Below, in pieces: positions 25,389 to 54,125 of a DNA stretch of 54,125 bases. The notes beneath the pieces are model-generated. The model was given only the letters and a program-made list of their open reading frames with translations, was not told the DNA's origin and did not search any database. The stretch is from an uncultured Lentisphaerales bacterium (GTDB lineage: Bacteria > Verrucomicrobiota > Kiritimatiellia > RFP12 > UBA3636). The DNA is taken from NCBI GenBank assembly GCA_964405775.1, contig CAYOPG010000004.1, positions 1 through 54,125 on the forward strand, read 5' to 3'. Every line of letters starts with the position of its first letter. Positions within the stretch are counted from its first letter, which is position 1. Made by a program: the position numbers and the translations under genes.

Positions 25389-25464
25389 TGGTGGGCCCTG
25401 AGGGATTCGAACCCCCAACCAAGGGATTATGAGTCCCCTGCTCTGACCGTTGAGCTAAGGGCCC
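25389..25464 (-). tRNA. tRNA-Ile2 (CAT anticodon, lysidine type)
   Basis: GGGCCCTTAGCTCAACGGTCAGAGCAGGGGACTCATAATCCCTTGGTTGGGGGTTCGAATCCCTCAGGGCCCACCA; cloverleaf, encoded CCA; resembles Ile2 more than Met. Confidence 0.9.
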
Positions 25465-26729: not shown

Positions 26730-26806
<77 letters not shown>

Positions 26807-37994: not shown

Positions 37995-38182
37995 GCCGCA
38001 TAAACCAACCGACAGGTAGGTAGGCCGGAGCCAACGGAAGTCCGTGTAAATCGGACGCGGTGACGCCGCTGTAAGTGATAGTCCGAGGCAATATGCCACG
38101 AGAAGGTGGGGGTCTCTTTTCCCCAGCGATCGGAAGGTGCCAAGGGTGTTATTGTCACGAGCCAGAAGACGAGTTACGGCCA
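37995..38182 (+). ncRNA. Cobalamin (B12) riboswitch
   Basis: CGGAA, T-loop stem GTCCG-TGTAAAT-CGGAC, GCGG-TGACG-CCGC-TGTAA, GTGATA/TGTCAC stem, GCCACGA...TCGGAAGG B12 box, GAGCCAGAAGAC; possible promoter TTGCAT-18-TACTAT at 37963-37992. Confidence 0.88.
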
Positions 38183-38249: not shown

Positions 38250-40199
38250 ATGAACAAATGTTTGCGCGTTTTGAGCGCGGCCGCGATTGCGCTGCCGTGC
38301 TGGCTTGGCTTTGCTCCTGAATTCGCCTCTGCATCAACCGGAAGCTTCACCTTCGACGATATCCACTACTGGGTGGGCGAGGGAACGAACCGGGCCGTGG
38401 TACTAATAGACTACGACTTCCGTGGACGCGCCGCCGGCGTATCGAACTCCCTCGCATACGGTTTCCGCTGGAATGGCGAGATAACGCAACTCGAGGCGTT
38501 GCGCTTGATAGGCGGGGAGGACAAACGCCTCCACTTCTCCACATATGAAAGCTGGGGAAGCACATTGCCGGAAGCCTTCGCCTATGACAGAAAAGGCAAC
38601 GGAGGTGCGTTCGCCCTTTCAGATGGCCTGAAGACCGATCCAGGGGACATAATCGAGAGCTGCAACTCGGATACGGGATGGAACTTCTACTGGGCGACCA
38701 CTGAGTTGACAAACTCGACCACTTTCACGGAAAACTTCCGGTTCATTACAAGGGGGGGAATCGCCTCGGAATATATGATCCCCGATTCTTTTTTAGGGCT
38801 GATGTTCCTACCCTGGGCAACGACTTGGAATGAGAGTATCGGGGAGTGGGACGCGGAATGGAACCCGCTGCCTTACACCTATCCTGAGACAGGCGATTAT
38901 ATAGATTTCATCCCTTCAATGCCTGTGGCAGCGGAGTCGCCATATGGGTTTAGAGTTTTTGGTTTCGAGTCGGACACCAGCGCTTATTTCGCAGGGAATT
39001 ATATCCATCCAGAAGCGGCGGTTGGACGTCCGGCGGCATCAACTCTGCCTAAGGATGCCGATCAATACGACGGGCCCGCCATTCCGTTGACTCCACTCAT
39101 GGGCGCCATGGGCACAAACCAGGTGCTAAGACTCGTCGATATTTATGATGATTTCGGAGACCTAGAAACACGCGGGTGCATCACGATTGAGTTCGACCAT
39201 CCCGTGGTGGATGATCCGAACAACCCGTGGGGTCTTGATTTCATAGTCTTTGGCAATGCCTTCTACCAGGGCAACGCCGGAAGTGAAAACATGACTGGTT
39301 TTGAAAATCCCACGAACGTTATTGTCAGAAAAGTTTCCACGAATAATCCTGAGATCCTCGTCGCCGAGCCGGGGCTTGTGGCGGTGTCGCAGGACAGGGA
39401 AACGTGGTTTACTTCAGACACGTGGTTGCACGCTGACTCTTTCGCTCCGACGCTTGGCTACAAGCTCGACCCTGCAAACGCCAATCCAGCCCTTTTTGCC
39501 GGCAACAAGTGGTGGGGCGCCAAGACCGATCCGACATATCCGGTTCCGCCGTGGGGAGAGGAGTCTATTGCGCCGGGCACAAACCTCGCGCAAATTGCCA
39601 CGTGGTACAACGGATCTGCAGGTGGCGCAGCTTTCGATATTTCAAGTCTTGACCTGCCAGCTACGCACAACGGAAGAAAGTGGTTCAAGTATGTTCGAAT
39701 TACGAACAATGCCAACCCGGACGATGGTAGTTCCTCATGCGAAATCGATGCCGTTGCGGACGTCTATCCCGACACGCCATACGGAGTTTACGCTAAAGAG
39801 CTCTACGCTTGGACTGAGCTGCCGTCGAAAGGAAGAAAAACCGCGCTTGCCGCAAACGGTCGGCCGAACTTTGTGAACTTCGCATTGGGGGAGGACCCTG
39901 CCGCTACACTTGAGATAAGCGACTTCGTCGTACGTGATGGGCGTCTATGGTTCTCTTTCCCTGTCTGGAAGGCGGACTGGAATATCAACGACATGCTTGA
40001 ATCAGGCATAGATTTCAGCGTCCGCGCCAAGAGCAAATTGACGAACGCGGGATCCGGCAACAACGTATTTGGTTTTGCCAGTTTCGAGGGGTTGACCACA
40101 AACTCGGTTGACGGCACATACACCGCGACGATTTCCGTCGACGAGCTGCCGACGGCCCAAAACGCGTTCTTCCGTCTTGGCATTTCGGCTGAAGAGTAG
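38250..40199 (+). CDS. Secreted multi-domain protein under the B12 riboswitch; candidate corrinoid-binding surface protein
   Basis: Sec signal ending ASA; domain 1 FTFDDIHYWVGEG.NRAV; domain 2 ITIEFDHP..D.PNNPWGLDFIVFGNAF...EPGLVAVSQD...GGAAFDISSL..YVRI..EIDAV; C-terminal FFRL-type end. Confidence 0.7.
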   Translation: MNKCLRVLSAAAIALPCWLGFAPEFASASTGSFTFDDIHYWVGEGTNRAVVLIDYDFRGRAAGVSNSLAYGFRWNGEITQLEALRLIGGEDKRLHFSTYESWGSTLPEAFAYDRKGNGGAFALSDGLKTDPGDIIESCNSDTGWNFYWATTELTNSTTFTENFRFITRGGIASEYMIPDSFLGLMFLPWATTWNESIGEWDAEWNPLPYTYPETGDYIDFIPSMPVAAESPYGFRVFGFESDTSAYFAGNYIHPEAAVGRPAASTLPKDADQYDGPAIPLTPLMGAMGTNQVLRLVDIYDDFGDLETRGCITIEFDHPVVDDPNNPWGLDFIVFGNAFYQGNAGSENMTGFENPTNVIVRKVSTNNPEILVAEPGLVAVSQDRETWFTSDTWLHADSFAPTLGYKLDPANANPALFAGNKWWGAKTDPTYPVPPWGEESIAPGTNLAQIATWYNGSAGGAAFDISSLDLPATHNGRKWFKYVRITNNANPDDGSSSCEIDAVADVYPDTPYGVYAKELYAWTELPSKGRKTALAANGRPNFVNFALGEDPAATLEISDFVVRDGRLWFSFPVWKADWNINDMLESGIDFSVRAKSKLTNAGSGNNVFGFASFEGLTTNSVDGTYTATISVDELPTAQNAFFRLGISAEE

Positions 40200-50647: not shown

Positions 50648-51952
50648 TCAGCCCGCCATATCAGCAGCCTTGCGGCAGCGTGCGCACACGCGTTCGCGCC
50701 CGATGAGCGTGAGCAGTTCGAAAAGGCCTGGCCCTTCGCCGACTCCCGACACCGCCACTCGGAGCGGGTGGACAACGGCTCCCATGCCGCCAAGTTCCTC
50801 GCCCTTATCCTTTACAAGCTTCTCCGTAGTGTCGATTGTGAACTCGGGCAAAGCCTCGAATTTGTCAGCGAACTCCCGCAGGAGGTCTGCTACTCCTTCG
50901 CGTTTCAGGCGTTTATTGACGGCTGCCTCGGAGTAGGGGAAATCGTCGGTGAAAAGGTATATGCAGTTGTCCGGGATGTCCTTGTATGTTTTCGTGCGCG
51001 GCTGTATTGGATCCAGCACGGCGTCCAGATCGCCAATCAGAGGCTTCGTGGGCAGACCCGCCGCTTCCATTCGCGACAGAAACTCCGTCTTGAATTCCTC
51101 GCGAGGCTGTCTGGCTATATATTCGCCGTTCATCCATGTCAGCTTTTTTATGTCGAAGCGCGCGGGGCTCGATTTGCAGTGGTCCAACGAGAATGCCTCT
51201 ATCAGTTCCTCACGCGTCATTATCTCGCGGTCGTCGCCCGGAGCCCAGCCGAGAAGGACGAGGAAGTTGAACAGCGCATCGGGCAAGAACCCCTGCTCGC
51301 GGAATTCTCCAACGAAAGCGGCGCCATCGCGCTTAGAGTACGGCTTGCCCTGGTTGTTGACTATCATCGGCAGGTGCGCGTAGGCTGGCGGGACAACATC
51401 CATAGCCTTGAACATCTCGATGTGTTTGAAAGTGTTCTCGACGTGGTCGTCGCCCCGTATCACGTGAGTGATGCCCATATCTGCGTCGTCTACGACATTC
51501 GCGAGGTGGAACACAGGTGTGCCGTCTGAGCGTACTATTACGAAATCCTGCGTGTCTTCGGCCTTCTTTTTGAGGTCTCCCTTAACGAGGTCGTGGAAGC
51601 GGAGCGTGCCTTCCTTAGGCATGCGGAATACCAGGCATTCGCCTTCGCCTCCCTTGTTGTCACGGTATGCGAAGCCTTTCGCCTCAAGCTCGGAGGCCAC
51701 GGCAAGATGGCGCACCGTGTTGGCGCTTTGGTAAACGGCAGACTCATCGTAATCAAGTTTTAGCCATTCCATGCATTCAAGCAGGGTCTTTATGGCTTCT
51801 GGTGTGGAACGTTCGAGATCCGTGTCCTCCACGCGAAGCAGGAACTTGCCCCCTTCGTGGCGTGCGAAGAGCCAATTGAAAACTGCCGCGCGGATATTGC
51901 CTATGTGGACATTACCTGTGGGGCTGGGTGCGAAACGGACGCGGACGGACAT
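50648..51952 (-). CDS. gltX: Glutamate-tRNA ligase
   Basis: RFAPSPTG, HIGN, LRVEDTD, VIRGDDH, YSKR. Confidence 0.95.
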   Translation of the reverse strand: MSVRVRFAPSPTGNVHIGNIRAAVFNWLFARHEGGKFLLRVEDTDLERSTPEAIKTLLECMEWLKLDYDESAVYQSANTVRHLAVASELEAKGFAYRDNKGGEGECLVFRMPKEGTLRFHDLVKGDLKKKAEDTQDFVIVRSDGTPVFHLANVVDDADMGITHVIRGDDHVENTFKHIEMFKAMDVVPPAYAHLPMIVNNQGKPYSKRDGAAFVGEFREQGFLPDALFNFLVLLGWAPGDDREIMTREELIEAFSLDHCKSSPARFDIKKLTWMNGEYIARQPREEFKTEFLSRMEAAGLPTKPLIGDLDAVLDPIQPRTKTYKDIPDNCIYLFTDDFPYSEAAVNKRLKREGVADLLREFADKFEALPEFTIDTTEKLVKDKGEELGGMGAVVHPLRVAVSGVGEGPGLFELLTLIGRERVCARCRKAADMAG

Positions 51953-52004
51953 TGCTTGCCTTTCTTCTTGATGCTTTCTCTTATTGCTAAATCATTCATT
52001 TTAC

Positions 52005-52113
52005 AACGTCAAAGGTGACTCACGGCTGCCCGTGGCGCGACTCCTGCCCCGAGCGAAGCGAGGAAGCAGGAGGCGTGACGCGGGTAGCCGTTGAGTCCAC
52101 CGCCTTGTTGGGC
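52005..52113 (-). mobile_element. Integron attC recombination site
   Basis: GCCCAAC (R'') + 5 nt + GGTGGACTCAACGGCTACCCG ... CGGGCAGCCGTGAGTCACC + 6 nt + GTT (R'); hairpin with extrahelical G and A. Confidence 0.9.
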
Positions 52114-53048
52114 ATTTTGATTTTGTATTCGGGAGCAAACTCGCAGACTCTTGTAGTATCATCCATCCATGAAAGATTCCTTCCTATGACTAACTCTGTC
52201 ATTTCTGCATGATGGGTATTCTTCATCGGAATGGGCTTGGCTTGCAGAGAATACTTTCGTGCAAAACTCTTCACCTCATCAGAATTGTCGTAAGTCATTA
52301 TAAAATCACCCGCTAATTCTGAACATTTCTTGAAGAGCGTATCGTGGTCGACGCTAGAATGCGTGTAGAGGCGACTACCAGCGTTTTTTCCGCCCGCCGT
52401 GTAAGGAGGATCGATGAAATAGACCGCATCATGGTCTTCCTTGTGTTTATCTAATACGTCAAAAGCATCACCCTGCTCAAAACGTAGTCTTGGCAATACA
52501 TGCGTGATGTCATTGATTCGCTTTGCGAGCGTGGATGGATACCATCTTGATAAGATACCCTTTCCTGCTTCGCCGTTCTTCAAAAAGCCAGAACCGGCGG
52601 CCAAGATTCCGCCGTGGAGGGTTCTGTTCTTAATTATTGTTTGAAACGCCTTCTCTTTGCGGCTTTGGGGAATCCTCTGAGTTTCCTTAATAGCGTTCTC
52701 TTTCGACATCTCAAAATGTAGAATCTGATTGGATAGCCACTCGCCCTCTCCGGAAGTGATGGTGTCCCACACTGCTGCAATTTCATCATCTAGTTCCACC
52801 ATCAACACATTCTCCGTCAAATTCTCGAATGCTGCGGTGAGAGAGACAATGCCCCCTCCCGCAAAAGGTTCAATCAATAGGCTTGGCTTACACGGACGAC
52901 TCCGAAGCCACTCTCTGAGACGAGGTATAAACCACGTCTTGCCACCTGGATACCGAAATGGACTTCGCTGAGGGACGGAAGCAACGTTGACTGGACGGGC
53001 TTGGTCTGGCAAATCAAAGCCAAACAAATCTTTCGAAGCGTGCATCAT
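52020..53048 (-). CDS. D12-class N6-adenine DNA methyltransferase
   Basis: SPFRYPGGK, EPFAGGG (motif I), DPPY (motif IV), MTYD. Confidence 0.92.
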   Translation of the reverse strand: MMHASKDLFGFDLPDQARPVNVASVPQRSPFRYPGGKTWFIPRLREWLRSRPCKPSLLIEPFAGGGIVSLTAAFENLTENVLMVELDDEIAAVWDTITSGEGEWLSNQILHFEMSKENAIKETQRIPQSRKEKAFQTIIKNRTLHGGILAAGSGFLKNGEAGKGILSRWYPSTLAKRINDITHVLPRLRFEQGDAFDVLDKHKEDHDAVYFIDPPYTAGGKNAGSRLYTHSSVDHDTLFKKCSELAGDFIMTYDNSDEVKSFARKYSLQAKPIPMKNTHHAEMTELVIGRNLSWMDDTTRVCEFAPEYKIKMPNKAVDSTATRVTPPASSLRSGQESRHGQP

Positions 53049-53917
53049 GAACTGAACGGAGTATCAATCGTTTGGTTTGTTGGAGGCGATTCTAATTTCT
53101 CGTCAACCTTAGCTTGTAGAATCTTTAGAAAGTCATCAACTTTCCCAATTTTTGGGCGCGTAATCGTGTTCAGCGCCTCAGAAAACCTAGTATACACAGT
53201 CTTCGTCTTGCGAATCTTCAAACACCCAGAATGGTCAACGACTAGGTCATAGACAAGCCATGCGACATCTGCATCTTTTGGGGGTGTTTCCTGCAATTGA
53301 GGTAATGTATTAAAGAATGGTGAATCAAGAGCGACAGCCATCTTCTTTCCCCATGCATTTAGTATGCCTCCTTTGAACATCAATTGAGGCGCAAGACGTT
53401 TCCGCGAAGAAGACAAGAAATCAGGTCTGGGGTAATTTGGCTCGTTTCTCCAATCCATATCTTGGTGCGCCGCACAATCTGACATGTAGCGAGCAAATGG
53501 ATCACGAACATTACCTGAGATGTAAACGGCTTGAACCTCAAGTGAGCCAAAATCGATCACTTTCCCAGCGGCGTCATAAGCTACTAGCACTACATCGATG
53601 TTGCCAGCGGATTTCCCTTCTCCATCCGCCAGTCTGACCTCAGTCAAGGAGGTCCACATCGAACCATCTGGGAAGAAAAAAGCCGCAGCATCATCGGCAA
53701 TTAGCCAGTCCTCTCGAAATCTGACTGGGCAGGTAATTACAGGGGATTGTCCGTGGAATACGCTGCAAACGCCCAACGGATCTTTCGCTTTGTCTTTGGT
53801 GCAACTTGGCACCTTATTGTTGAAGGGACAAAGTTTATGCTTCCTGAAGCGTTGTGCGCGATCAGAAAAATCGGACGTGGAGTGTCCGAAAACTTCAGCT
53901 AGAGGGTGATTTGGCAT
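53045..53917 (-). CDS. NotI-family type II restriction endonuclease
   Basis: CPF...C.K...GVCS...CPVRF four-Cys motif, NIDVVL, EVQAVYISGN, RPDFLSSSRKRLAPQL..KG; ATGA overlap with MTase. Confidence 0.8.
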   Translation of the reverse strand: MPNHPLAEVFGHSTSDFSDRAQRFRKHKLCPFNNKVPSCTKDKAKDPLGVCSVFHGQSPVITCPVRFREDWLIADDAAAFFFPDGSMWTSLTEVRLADGEGKSAGNIDVVLVAYDAAGKVIDFGSLEVQAVYISGNVRDPFARYMSDCAAHQDMDWRNEPNYPRPDFLSSSRKRLAPQLMFKGGILNAWGKKMAVALDSPFFNTLPQLQETPPKDADVAWLVYDLVVDHSGCLKIRKTKTVYTRFSEALNTITRPKIGKVDDFLKILQAKVDEKLESPPTNQTIDTPFSS

Positions 53918-54024
53918 GACTTTGACAGTGAAGGGAAAGCTGATTCTCGGCGATTCTTATTTTTCGCCCAACAGTGTTATTGAGCCTACTTCGCACAATG
54001 GCTTCTTTGAGTAAAACGATGGTG

Positions 54025-54053
54025 ATTATAGGTTTCATTTCAGTTTCAGTCAA
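54025..54053 (-). promoter_or_regulatory. Near-consensus sigma70 promoter facing into the cassette
   Basis: Minus strand TTGACT (54053-54048), 17 nt, TATAAT (54030-54025). Confidence 0.8.
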
Positions 54054-54125
54054 GTCCAGAAAACGTTATTCGAGCCGATTGCGTTGTTCATGGTATGCCT
54101 GTATTCATTGGGTGAAATTCATACG

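What the first reader, a model, noticed from the sequence alone, without database searches (positions are those of the whole stretch)
52005..53972. Complete integron cassette carrying a restriction-modification system, absent from the ORF track
Seen: attC with R'' GCCCAAC, 5-nt and 6-nt spacers, L arms pairing with extrahelical G and A, R' GTT; the cassette 5' end TTGGGC completes R' exactly on circularisation. Known: this is the signature of IntI-mediated integration. No intI is in the window and only one attC was found. Inference: integron-borne phage defence in a PVC-type genome, either the first cassette of an integron just off the edge or a lone cassette.
Basis: partly seen in the sequence, partly recalled or inferred. 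Interest (0 to 1): 0.72.

Follow-up and report, generated by a model that had tools for sequence, protein, structure and literature searches.

The report
Integron cassette with restriction-modification genes
A two-gene restriction-modification (anti-phage) system sits in this Kiritimatiellia-type genome as a genuine integron gene cassette, inserted exactly at an integron attachment site that has its own promoter; this kind of unit is well known, but this integron lineage is barely described.

Summary
Window 52007-53971 (minus strand, 1965 nt) is a promoterless two-gene cassette: a NotI-family endonuclease and a D12-class N6-adenine methyltransferase. It ends in a 107-nt attC.

A covariance model built only from attC sites of related contigs, several of which carry an integron integrase, hits the 54-kb window once, at 52001-52113 (45.9 bits, E 2.7e-8; next hit 14 bits).

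This 22-mer occurs in 76 metagenome contigs. In 12 of 53 informative copies it lies within 450 nt of a divergent intI; full-length copies start 215-270 nt away. All 76 attC sites share its orientation. In 43 of 69 cassettes the first bases complement the cassette's own R'' box (3.5 expected), as in the window.

A sister species lacks the cassette. Another has the same attI core and a different cassette upstream of gltX.

Open points: no intI lies in the window, every public assembly breaks in the repeated attI/promoter unit, and most copies of that unit elsewhere are orphans. Restriction-modification cassettes in integrons are known, so the main finding is a new member of a known kind.

The parts
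54025..54053 (-). Pc-like promoter pointing into the cassette: -35 TTGACT (54053-54048), 17-nt spacer, -10 TATAAT (54030-54025)
   Evidence: 11 of 12 consensus matches, and the only promoter-like site in 51800-54125. A promoter of the same layout precedes the motif in the copies listed.
53970..53992 (-). attI core GAAGTAGGCTCAATAACACTG|TT; crossover between G53972 and T53971
   Evidence: the exact 22-mer occurs in 76 metagenome contigs; it lies 215-270 nt from the start of a divergent full-length intI (8 contigs; 12 of 53 copies have intI, whole or degraded, within 450 nt); 31 of 46 cassettes that start right after it complement their own R'' at 4 of 4 positions.
52007..53971 (-). The gene cassette, 1965 nt, from TT of the 5' junction to G of R'
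   Evidence: 87% nucleotide identity to a second copy (L095) starts at 53967, just inside the 5' edge. GC 0.43-0.50 against 0.53-0.59 in the flanks.
53045..53917 (-). NotI-family type II restriction endonuclease, 290 aa
   Evidence: PF12183, 7.4e-61; 6485 homologues, 70-92% identical in many phyla; weak PADLOC REase_II hit.
52020..53048 (-). D12-class (Dam-like) N6-adenine DNA methyltransferase. Its start overlaps the endonuclease stop (ATGA). The conserved body ends near residue 295 (about 52164). The remaining tail of about 47 aa is read-through towards and into attC.
   Evidence: PF02086. TIGR00571 below cut-off. PADLOC MTase_II and PD-Lambda-5_B. DPPY motif in the translation; the phage homologue stops 2 aa after LSWM.
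52001..52113 (+). attC; the recombining bottom strand is the window + strand. R' ..AAC 52001-52007, spacer 52008-52013, L' 52014-52019, stem and loop, extrahelical T 52091 and C 52098, L'' 52095-52101, spacer 52102-52106, R'' GTTGGGC 52107-52113
   Evidence: folds; model hit, 45.9 bits; positions 16 and 23.
51953..52006 (-). Native gltX upstream region beginning TTGTAAAATGA, the host side of the 3' junction. GTTGTAAAATG is conserved in L015 and L016.
50648..51952 (-). gltX (glutamyl-tRNA synthetase), the housekeeping neighbour; context only

Best explanation
Window 52007-53971 is an integron gene cassette. It is a promoterless, translationally coupled endonuclease-methyltransferase pair followed by an attC site. 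It sits at the crossover point of an attI core, GAAGTAGGCTCAATAACACTG|TT, that brings its own outward promoter.

Shown: all the sequence parts, their geometry, their membership of a family linked to integron integrases, and the absence or replacement of the cassette in close relatives.

Inferred mechanism: an integron integrase binds the folded bottom (+) strand of attC and cleaves between A52006 and C52007. It exchanges strands with attI between 53972 and 53971. That inserts or excises a 1965-nt circle in which G plus TTGGGC rebuilds R'. Transcription from the promoter at 54053-54025 expresses both genes. The methyltransferase protects host DNA at an adenine-containing site, and the endonuclease cuts unmodified incoming DNA. 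The pair may also act as an addiction module that stabilises the locus.

The most likely context is an 'orphan' attI/promoter unit with one cassette next to gltX, served if at all by an integrase encoded elsewhere, rather than the head of a complete integron.
For: The attC geometry matches the published rules (PMC5027507). These are RYYYAAC/GTTRRRY boxes, spacers of 5-6 nt, extrahelical bases on the L'' arm at positions 16 and 23 separated by a 6-bp stem, and length within 57-141 nt.

The bottom strand folds about 10 kcal/mol better than the top strand. An independent covariance model gives one hit in the window, E 2.7e-8. It is specific: 77 hits in 0.31 Mb of attI-motif contigs, 25 of them its own training sites, against 2 in 1.1 Mb of controls.

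Full-length integrases that pass TIGR02249 start 215-270 nt upstream of the same 22-mer that abuts the cassette. All 76 attC sites have the orientation of the motif, and 43 of 69 cassettes show perfect 5'-end/R'' complementarity against 3.5 expected. The window is one of them.

The only promoter-like site in the region is the one upstream of attI. GC drops over the cassette.

The same R-M pair, 87% identical in DNA, sits in another context with a weak attC at the same place. L015 lacks the cassette, and L016 has the same attI core with a different cassette upstream of gltX.

Orphan context: 34 of 53 informative copies of the attI unit have neither intI nor an attC upstream. The window's unit is 96% identical to that of L171, where the start of a divergent intI-type reading frame follows. 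Similarity stops abruptly at about 54070.
Against: No intI lies in the 54-kb window, and none could be tied to this genome. All 10 contigs shown, of 16 that encode the identical GltX, carry the cassette. No empty site or circle junction was seen, so there is no sign of current mobility.

The proximal extrahelical base is C, whereas published attC sites 'usually' have G. That said, C is the majority state in this family, 18 of 25.

The exact empty junction ACACTG|TTGTAA was not found in any relative. IntegronFinder's own attC model could not be run. My training set was picked with a structural filter, so its covariation statistics are partly circular. Restriction, methylation, promoter activity and defence are all untested.
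Confidence: 0.88

Rival explanations
1. This is a complete integron: intI lies just beyond the window end, divergent from the promoter, and the R-M unit is the first and only cassette of its array.
For: In 12 of 53 informative copies the same attI core has intI within 450 nt. The integrase start would fall at about 54200-54260, outside the window. L171 has a 96%-identical promoter/attI unit followed by the start of a divergent intI-type reading frame.
Against: Similarity to L171 ends at about 54070. The window's last 61 nt match none of the fetched regions between intI and attI. No AAGTAGGCT-type box occurs in the 134 nt available, while intI-linked copies have an inverted box at -130 to -142. 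Most copies elsewhere are orphans. L016, with the same gltX-side arrangement, has no intI in 4.8 kb upstream.
Confidence: 0.22
2. This is a fossil cassette. It was delivered by integron recombination but is now fixed, because the genome has no working integrase. Today it behaves as an ordinary chromosomal R-M operon driven by the captured promoter.
For: Every public assembly of this species seen here carries it in the same place with identical sequence. Degraded integrase genes are common in this lineage (L116, L121, L127, L152, L154, L174).
Against: The attC is intact: it scores as well as attC sites of live-looking arrays and its R' and R'' boxes match perfectly. L095's copy, by contrast, has a decayed attC (22.6 bits). 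Absence of polymorphism in about 14 short contigs is weak evidence.
Confidence: 0.35
3. This is not integron-related. The hairpin is a terminator, REP-like repeat or RNA element, and the R-M genes arrived by another route such as phage, homologous recombination or their own mobility.
For: An 83%-identical endonuclease with its methyltransferase sits inside a Mu-like phage without any attC. The hairpin lies between two convergently unrelated transcription units, where a terminator would be useful.
Against: No T-run follows the stem, and the terminator scan did not call it. No Rfam family matches. The window holds no second copy. The unpaired spacers, the two extrahelical bases at fixed spacing, the AAC/GTT boxes and the exact 7-nt complementarity across 1.9 kb are not properties of terminators or REPs. 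The model hit and the adjoining attI core tie it to integrons.
Confidence: 0.03

Closest known systems
attC sites of classical integrons (e.g. attC of aadA7, VCR of Vibrio cholerae), as defined in Nivina et al. 2016 (PMC5027507) and Cury et al. 2016 (PMC4889954)
   Same: R'/R'' boxes with AAC/GTT, unpaired spacers of 5 and 6 nt, extrahelical bases at positions 16 and 23 on the L'' arm with a 6-bp stem between them, a variable terminal stem, bottom-strand bias, and a cassette start that rebuilds R'.
   Different: The proximal extrahelical base is C rather than the usual G, both here and in 18 of 25 family members. AAC is followed by AA and GTT is preceded by C almost invariably in this family. 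The long terminal stem makes a 107-nt site that lies inside the methyltransferase reading frame.
Defence cassettes of sedentary chromosomal integrons (Darracq et al. 2024, bioRxiv 10.1101/2024.07.02.601686)
   Same: A compact type II R-M system as integron cargo, placed in first position next to Pc, where that paper shows defence cassettes become active. The paper states that small type II and IV restriction systems are the prevalent ones in integrons.
   Different: The host is a Kiritimatiellia-type PVC bacterium, not Vibrio or another gammaproteobacterium. There is a single cassette, not a long array, and no integrase is in view.
CALIN/SALIN elements and attG insertion (Loot et al. 2023, bioRxiv 10.1101/2022.09.11.507474; Neron et al. 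2022)
   Same: One attC with no integrase nearby, next to a housekeeping gene, with the junction at a GTT in host DNA (GTTGTAAAATGA).
   Different: A SALIN has no att partner. Here a recognisable attI core with its promoter lies at the other end, so the unit is closer to an integron platform that has lost, or never had, its integrase.
Integron platforms of PVC bacteria (integrases of Lentisphaera araneosa and Rhodopirellula baltica listed in Cambray et al. 2011, PMC3108266; NCBI-named 'integron integrase [Kiritimatiellae bacterium]')
   Same: The same superphylum, and an integrase passing TIGR02249.
   Different: In the literature I searched, no attI, Pc or attC description exists for this lineage. 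The integrase here has an unexplained N-terminal extension of 155-170 aa.
NotI-family type II R-M systems (Pfam PF12183)
   Same: Strong full-length match to the family (7.4e-61), with an adjacent methyltransferase.
   Different: The partner is a D12-class N6-adenine enzyme, so the recognition site must contain adenine and cannot be NotI's GCGGCCGC. No solved structure is detectable by sequence. The specificity is unknown.

Membership tests
Integron attC site | R' RYYYAAC and R'' GTTRRRY on the bottom strand, with conserved AAC/GTT | tested here: met
   R'' GTTGGGC at 52107-52113 fits GTTRRRY. AAC is at 52005-52007. After circularisation R' becomes GCCCAAC, which fits RYYYAAC (definition).
Integron attC site | Unpaired central spacer of 5-6 nt on each arm | tested here: met
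   GTCAAA (52008-52013) and GCCTT (52102-52106). They cannot pair with each other.
Integron attC site | Extrahelical bases on the L'' arm of the bottom strand, with first and last separated by a 6-bp stem; the first is usually G and the last is T | tested here: met
   Position 16 is C52098 and position 23 is T52091, with 6 bp between. The position and spacing rules are met. The identity of the first base is C, not the usual G. 'Usually' is the wording of PMC5027507.
Integron attC site | Length 57-141 nt with a variable terminal structure; the bottom strand folds better than the top | tested here: met
   107 nt within the cassette. The bottom strand folds at -38.4 and the top at -28.1 kcal/mol.
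Integron attC site | Match to an attC covariance model | tested here: met
   Lineage-specific model R1: 45.9 bits, E 2.7e-8, the only hit in the window. IntegronFinder's own model was not available, so that exact test was not run.
Integron attC site | Recombined by an integron integrase, bottom strand only | not testable with these tools
   This needs a conjugation or in vitro assay.
Integron gene cassette | The first bases after the upstream crossover (TTnnnn) complement the cassette's own R'' | tested here: met
   GTTGGGC against GCCCAAC, 4 of 4 variable positions. The family-wide figure is 43 of 69 against 3.5 expected.
Integron gene cassette | Promoterless cargo expressed from Pc | tested here: inconclusive
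   The scan finds no promoter-like site inside the cassette and one strong site upstream of attI. That is a consensus scan only; no expression data exist.
attI site | The cassette insertion point next to intI, with repeated integrase-binding boxes | tested here: met
   The same 22-mer lies 215-270 nt from the start of full-length intI in 8 contigs. Direct and inverted AAGTAGGCT boxes lie between them, and these co-vary as AAGTCAGCT/AAGTTAGCT in L137. Cassettes start at its G|TT. Integrase binding itself is not tested. The boxes are absent from the window's 134 nt.
Complete integron (IntegronFinder sense) | intI close to at least one attC | tested here: not met
   tblastn with a lineage integrase finds nothing in the 54-kb window. 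Sequence beyond 54125 is unavailable, so 'not met' applies to the window only.
CALIN / SALIN | attC site or sites with no integrase nearby (a CALIN needs at least 2; a SALIN has exactly 1) | tested here: met
   One attC and no intI in the window. This fits SALIN as defined, with the added attI core.
Type II restriction-modification system | Adjacent endonuclease and methyltransferase genes with the catalytic motifs of their families | tested here: met
   PF12183 and PF02086. The DPPY motif is in the translation. The stop and start overlap in ATGA. Enzyme activity is not testable here.
PD-Lambda-5 defence system | Both components A and B present | tested here: not met
   Only the methyltransferase matches (PD-Lambda-5_B, 3.3e-39). 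The endonuclease does not match component A.

The most novel reading that the evidence does not exclude
This integron lineage may work as a distributed system. The attI core with its built-in promoter could be a multi-copy, dispersed and perhaps itself mobilisable unit of about 95-230 nt whose 5' edge often reads G|TT. Copies would sit inside arrays and at many chromosomal sites without intI. Each would form a 'satellite' expression site that a single distant integrase can load with cassettes. The window's gltX-side R-M locus would be one such satellite.
Probability: 0.3. Interest if true: 0.75.

Novelty: new member of a known kind. Interest (0 to 1): 0.5.

Why it matters
The finding shows that integron-style capture of defence genes operates in Kiritimatiellia-type PVC bacteria of digesters, sludge and guts. 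These are far from the Vibrio and clinical models. It also supplies concrete, testable parts for that lineage: a 22-nt invariant attI core, its promoter, an attC family model and cognate integrases.

A first-position cassette behind a strong promoter is the configuration in which integron defence cassettes are active. The locus is therefore a natural case for testing 'integrons as defence biobanks' outside Proteobacteria.

The side observation that most attI/promoter units are orphans or lie inside arrays would, if confirmed, change how integron platforms are thought to be organised. Practically, the repeated unit breaks every short-read assembly at this point, which hides such loci from MAG-based surveys.

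Tried and rejected
1. Conserved 5'-leader RNA. I first read the 22-mer and its variable upstream hairpin as a multi-copy leader motif. I rejected this once the link to integrases, the repeated boxes and the cassette-start rule showed it is attI.

2. XerCD/dif-like site or a group II intron 5' end (GTGCG) at 53990-54000. There are no dif-like arms, and conservation stops at G|TT.

3. Terminator or REP element for the hairpin. See the third rival.

4. Rfam. Nothing relevant at gathering or E-value thresholds.

5. L016 as a clean three-cassette array. Only one attC is strong (56.7 bits), one is weak (15.9), and the third unit has none. L016 therefore supports cassette exchange at the site but not a full array.

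6. L095's copy as a second intact cassette. Its attC is degenerate (22.6 bits) and its 5' junction reads GA|TTAGC, not G|TT.

7. Extending past 54125. The native contigs all stop there. The last 61 nt match nothing fetched. Integrase-homologue look-ups returned other organisms. The species is not in the GTDB representative set: the best gltX match is 93%.

8. A first brute-force attC scan timed out and was replaced by a filtered one.

9. PDB sequence search for the endonuclease: no hit.
Full report
WHAT IS THERE

Two overlapping genes lie on the minus strand between gltX (50648-51952) and the window end. One is a 290-aa NotI-family endonuclease (53045-53917; PF12183, 7.4e-61). The other is a 342-aa D12-class N6-adenine methyltransferase (52020-53048; PF02086, 7.2e-13) whose translation contains the DPPY motif. 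The endonuclease stop and the methyltransferase start overlap in ATGA. GC falls from 0.53-0.59 in the flanks to 0.43-0.50 over the pair. The genome is a Kiritimatiellia-type PVC bacterium: the closest gltX loci are MAGs labelled Lentisphaerae (93% and 82%) and Kiritimatiellae.

THE HAIRPIN

Read on the minus strand, the region downstream of the methyltransferase body is GCCCAAC-AAGGC-GGTGGAC...GTCACC-TTTGAC-G|TT. The + strand is the bottom strand relative to the genes. It folds at -38.4 kcal/mol (z -6.4, 0 of 200 shuffles as good). The minus strand folds at -28.1 (z -2.8).

In the bottom-strand fold the stem starts after unpaired spacers of 6 and 5 nt. It has 3 bp, an extrahelical C (52098), 6 bp, an extrahelical T (52091), and then a long imperfect stem. 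Counted from the 3' end, these bases are at positions 16 and 23. Nivina et al. 2016 give the rule for attC sites: an extrahelical base within L'' at position 16, usually G; a conserved T at position 23 or 24; a 6-bp stem between the first and last; spacers of 5-6 nt; R' RYYYAAC and R'' GTTRRRY; and length 57-141 bp (PMC5027507). All of these are met except that position 16 is C.

The cassette starts TTGGGC right after ...GAAGTAGGCTCAATAACACTG. About 30 nt of this flank reappear in L016, the 82% relative, followed by a different sequence.

I scanned the JGI metagenome collection for AAGTWRGCTCAATAACACTGTT and found 76 contigs, several with two copies. Every listed copy has a TTGAC-17-TAnnnT promoter about 65 nt upstream, then a variable segment, then the invariant motif, then a different gene. 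In the window the promoter is TTGACT-17-TATAAT (54053-54025). It matches 11 of 12 consensus positions and is the only promoter-like site in 51800-54125.

I first took this for a leader RNA motif. Three results show it is an attI site:

- Full-length divergent integrase genes start 215-270 nt upstream of the motif in L108, L112, L120, L125, L130, L137, L138 and L141. Degraded copies occur in L116, L121, L127, L152 and L154. Two of the integrases score 367 and 371 bits on TIGR02249 'integron integrase' against a cut-off of 265.
- Between intI and the motif lie direct and inverted copies of the motif's first half (AAGTAGGCT). In L137 all copies change together to AAGTCAGCT/AAGTTAGCT.
- Cassettes begin exactly at the motif's G|TT, as shown in the section on cassette logic below.

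THE attC FAMILY

A structural scan of the motif contigs found dozens of sites with the same layout and similar spacers, AAGGC/AAGCG and nnTGAC. I aligned 25 of them, none from the window, and built covariance model R1. With filters off, R1 hits the window once, at 52001-52113 on the + strand (45.9 bits, E 2.7e-8). The next hit scores 14.1 bits (E 0.33).

R1 finds 77 sites in 0.31 Mb of motif contigs, 25 of them its own training sites. It finds 2 in 1.1 Mb of other PVC loci fetched through gltX, plus two phage contigs. The pair statistics of the training alignment are strong: 91% of cells are paired against 27-49% when the 3' partners are slid by 1-3 columns, and 10 of 10 L-box pairs show compensatory changes. 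They are partly circular, because I chose the sites with a structural filter. The window hit and the control counts are not circular.

CASSETTE LOGIC ACROSS THE FAMILY

All 76 attC hits lie in the same orientation as the attI motif on their contig. In 43 of 69 intervals between successive sites, the four variable bases after the upstream G|TT are the exact complement of the four variable bases of the next R''. Shuffling partners gives 3.5. Among intervals that start at the attI motif, I count 31 of 46 with a perfect match.

The window is one of these (GTTGGGC/GCCCAAC). This is the signature of units that have passed through a circular form. It fixes the crossover at 53972|53971 and 52007|52006, which makes the cassette 1965 nt long.

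RELATIVES

L015 (gltX 93% identical) lacks the R-M pair and the attI unit. A divergent glycosyltransferase gene lies 127 nt upstream of gltX, and the site reads TTTGACTCTG|TTGTAAAATGA. DNA similarity to the window begins at 52013.

L016 has the attI core and then a 2.4-kb segment. This segment holds one strong attC (56.7 bits), one weak one (15.9 bits) and no detectable attC at its end. After it comes the same GTTGTAAAATG sequence. GTTGTAAAATG is found upstream of gltX only in these three genomes. So cassette content upstream of gltX varies among close relatives.

THE CARGO MOVES

The endonuclease has 6485 homologues at E of 1e-20 or better, 70-92% identical across unrelated phyla. A copy with a 92% identical endonuclease and 87% DNA identity over 1829 bp (window 53967-52139) lies between a HIT-family gene and mazEF/hisG in L095. 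It has a weak attC at the equivalent place (22.6 bits). An 83% identical copy sits in a Mu-like phage with no attC.

The methyltransferase body ends near residue 295. The phage version stops 2 aa later. The window's extra 47 residues are read-through towards and into attC.

WHAT REMAINS OPEN

The window holds no intI. Every public contig carrying these genes stops 82-208 nt upstream of the endonuclease. The Logan (k = 31) contigs all end at 53999, which is 53970 + 29. That is the expected result if a repeat begins at the attI core.

The window's promoter/attI unit is 96% identical to that of L171, where the start of a divergent intI-type reading frame follows. The similarity stops at about 54070, and the last 61 nt match nothing fetched.

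Among 53 non-redundant motif copies with at least 450 nt of upstream sequence, 12 have intI within 450 nt, 7 follow an attC inside an array, and 34 have neither. I therefore favour an orphan attI/promoter unit here (about 0.65) over an integrase just off the edge (about 0.22). Look-ups of integrase homologues returned other organisms.

All 10 contigs shown, of 16 with the identical GltX, carry the cassette, so current mobility is not shown.

COMPARISON WITH WHAT IS KNOWN

Integrons over-represent restriction-modification and other defence genes, and small type II and IV systems are the prevalent restriction types in cassettes. Single attC sites without an integrase (SALIN), and insertion at genomic GWT sites (attG) near resident promoters, are described. 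Integron integrases of PVC bacteria have been listed since 2011, and NCBI already names 'integron integrase [Kiritimatiellae bacterium]'.

I found no paper that combines integron, attC and Kiritimatiell* and no description of this attI. The finding is therefore a new member of a known kind. Three unusual lineage traits stand out: C at the proximal extrahelical position, an N-terminal extension on the integrase, and dispersed attI/promoter units.

VERDICT

My confidence that this is an integron-type cassette is 0.88. Interest is 0.5.

Noticed in passing
window 53970-54064; L098-L173: The attI core plus its promoter is a multi-copy unit. Of 53 informative copies, 12 are next to intI, 7 lie inside arrays directly after an attC (L119, L133, L148: attC..G|TTCTGCGGACG..small ORF..promoter..core), and 34 have neither. 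The 5' edge of the unit often reads G|TT (window 54064|54063; L105).
   Followed up: partly
window 53999 and 54088-54125; L001-L014: All public assemblies of this locus break inside the attI/promoter unit. About ten Logan contigs end exactly at 53999, and three ENA contigs end at 54088, 54117 and 54125. This is consistent with a repeat of about 95 nt occurring more than once in the genome or community.
   Followed up: partly
alignment A1 (25 attC sites from L099-L173); window 52098: The proximal extrahelical base (bottom-strand position 16) is C in 18 of 25 sites, G in 6 and T in 1. Published attC sites usually have G. The distal base (alignment column 78) is T in 24 of 25. AAC is followed by AA and GTT is preceded by C almost invariably.
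   Followed up: partly
L120 1826-3274 (-); L137 3728-5143 (+): The integron integrases of this lineage are 471-482 aa long. They have an N-terminal extension of about 155-170 aa before the SAM-like domain, conserved among copies (start M..F.DWE..L..TV), with no Pfam match.
   Followed up: no
L108, L112, L120, L130, L137, L171 (300 nt upstream of the attI core): Direct and inverted AAGTAGGCTTTATG boxes lie between intI and the promoter. In L137 all boxes and the core read AAGTCAGCT/AAGTTAGCT instead. This looks like co-evolving protein-binding sites.
   Followed up: partly
L154 1725-3044 (-): intI is truncated after about residue 230 and fused in frame to a QueH-like (LLHACCGPCS) sequence. Other degraded intI copies are in L116, L121, L127, L152 and L174.
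   Followed up: no
L096 4353-6115; L097 4085-5847: The same endonuclease-methyltransferase pair (83% and 74% aa identity) sits inside a Mu-like phage, directly after a Mu-like protease gene. It has no attC.
   Followed up: no
L095 349-384 and 2608-2643; 2700-3307: In L095 the R-M pair is followed by mazE/pemK. Each module is preceded by a 36-nt repeat (CCCTTTCCCACTCCACCCTTGGCTAACATGCAGCCA, 83% identical copies) of unknown role.
   Followed up: no
window 52020-52164: The methyltransferase reading frame runs about 47 codons past the end of the conserved body, through R'' and most of attC. Its stop codon (52020-52022) is in the 3' arm. The tail is probably a by-product.
   Followed up: yes
window 38036-38170 (+); 25392-25464 (-); 26730-26803 (+): A cobalamin riboswitch sits upstream of the ORF at 38250-40199, and there are two tRNA genes. 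These are the only Rfam hits at gathering score in the window.
   Followed up: no
window 53951-53970 (-): The cassette's 5' untranslated part holds a small inverted repeat, GGCGA-AAAATAAGAA-TCGCC. It is not conserved as a palindrome in L095, and its role is unknown.
   Followed up: no
L059 11878-11940; L056 2867-2944: These are the only two attC-model hits (about 40 bits) in 1.1 Mb of control loci. They may be lone cassettes in other PVC genomes.
   Followed up: no
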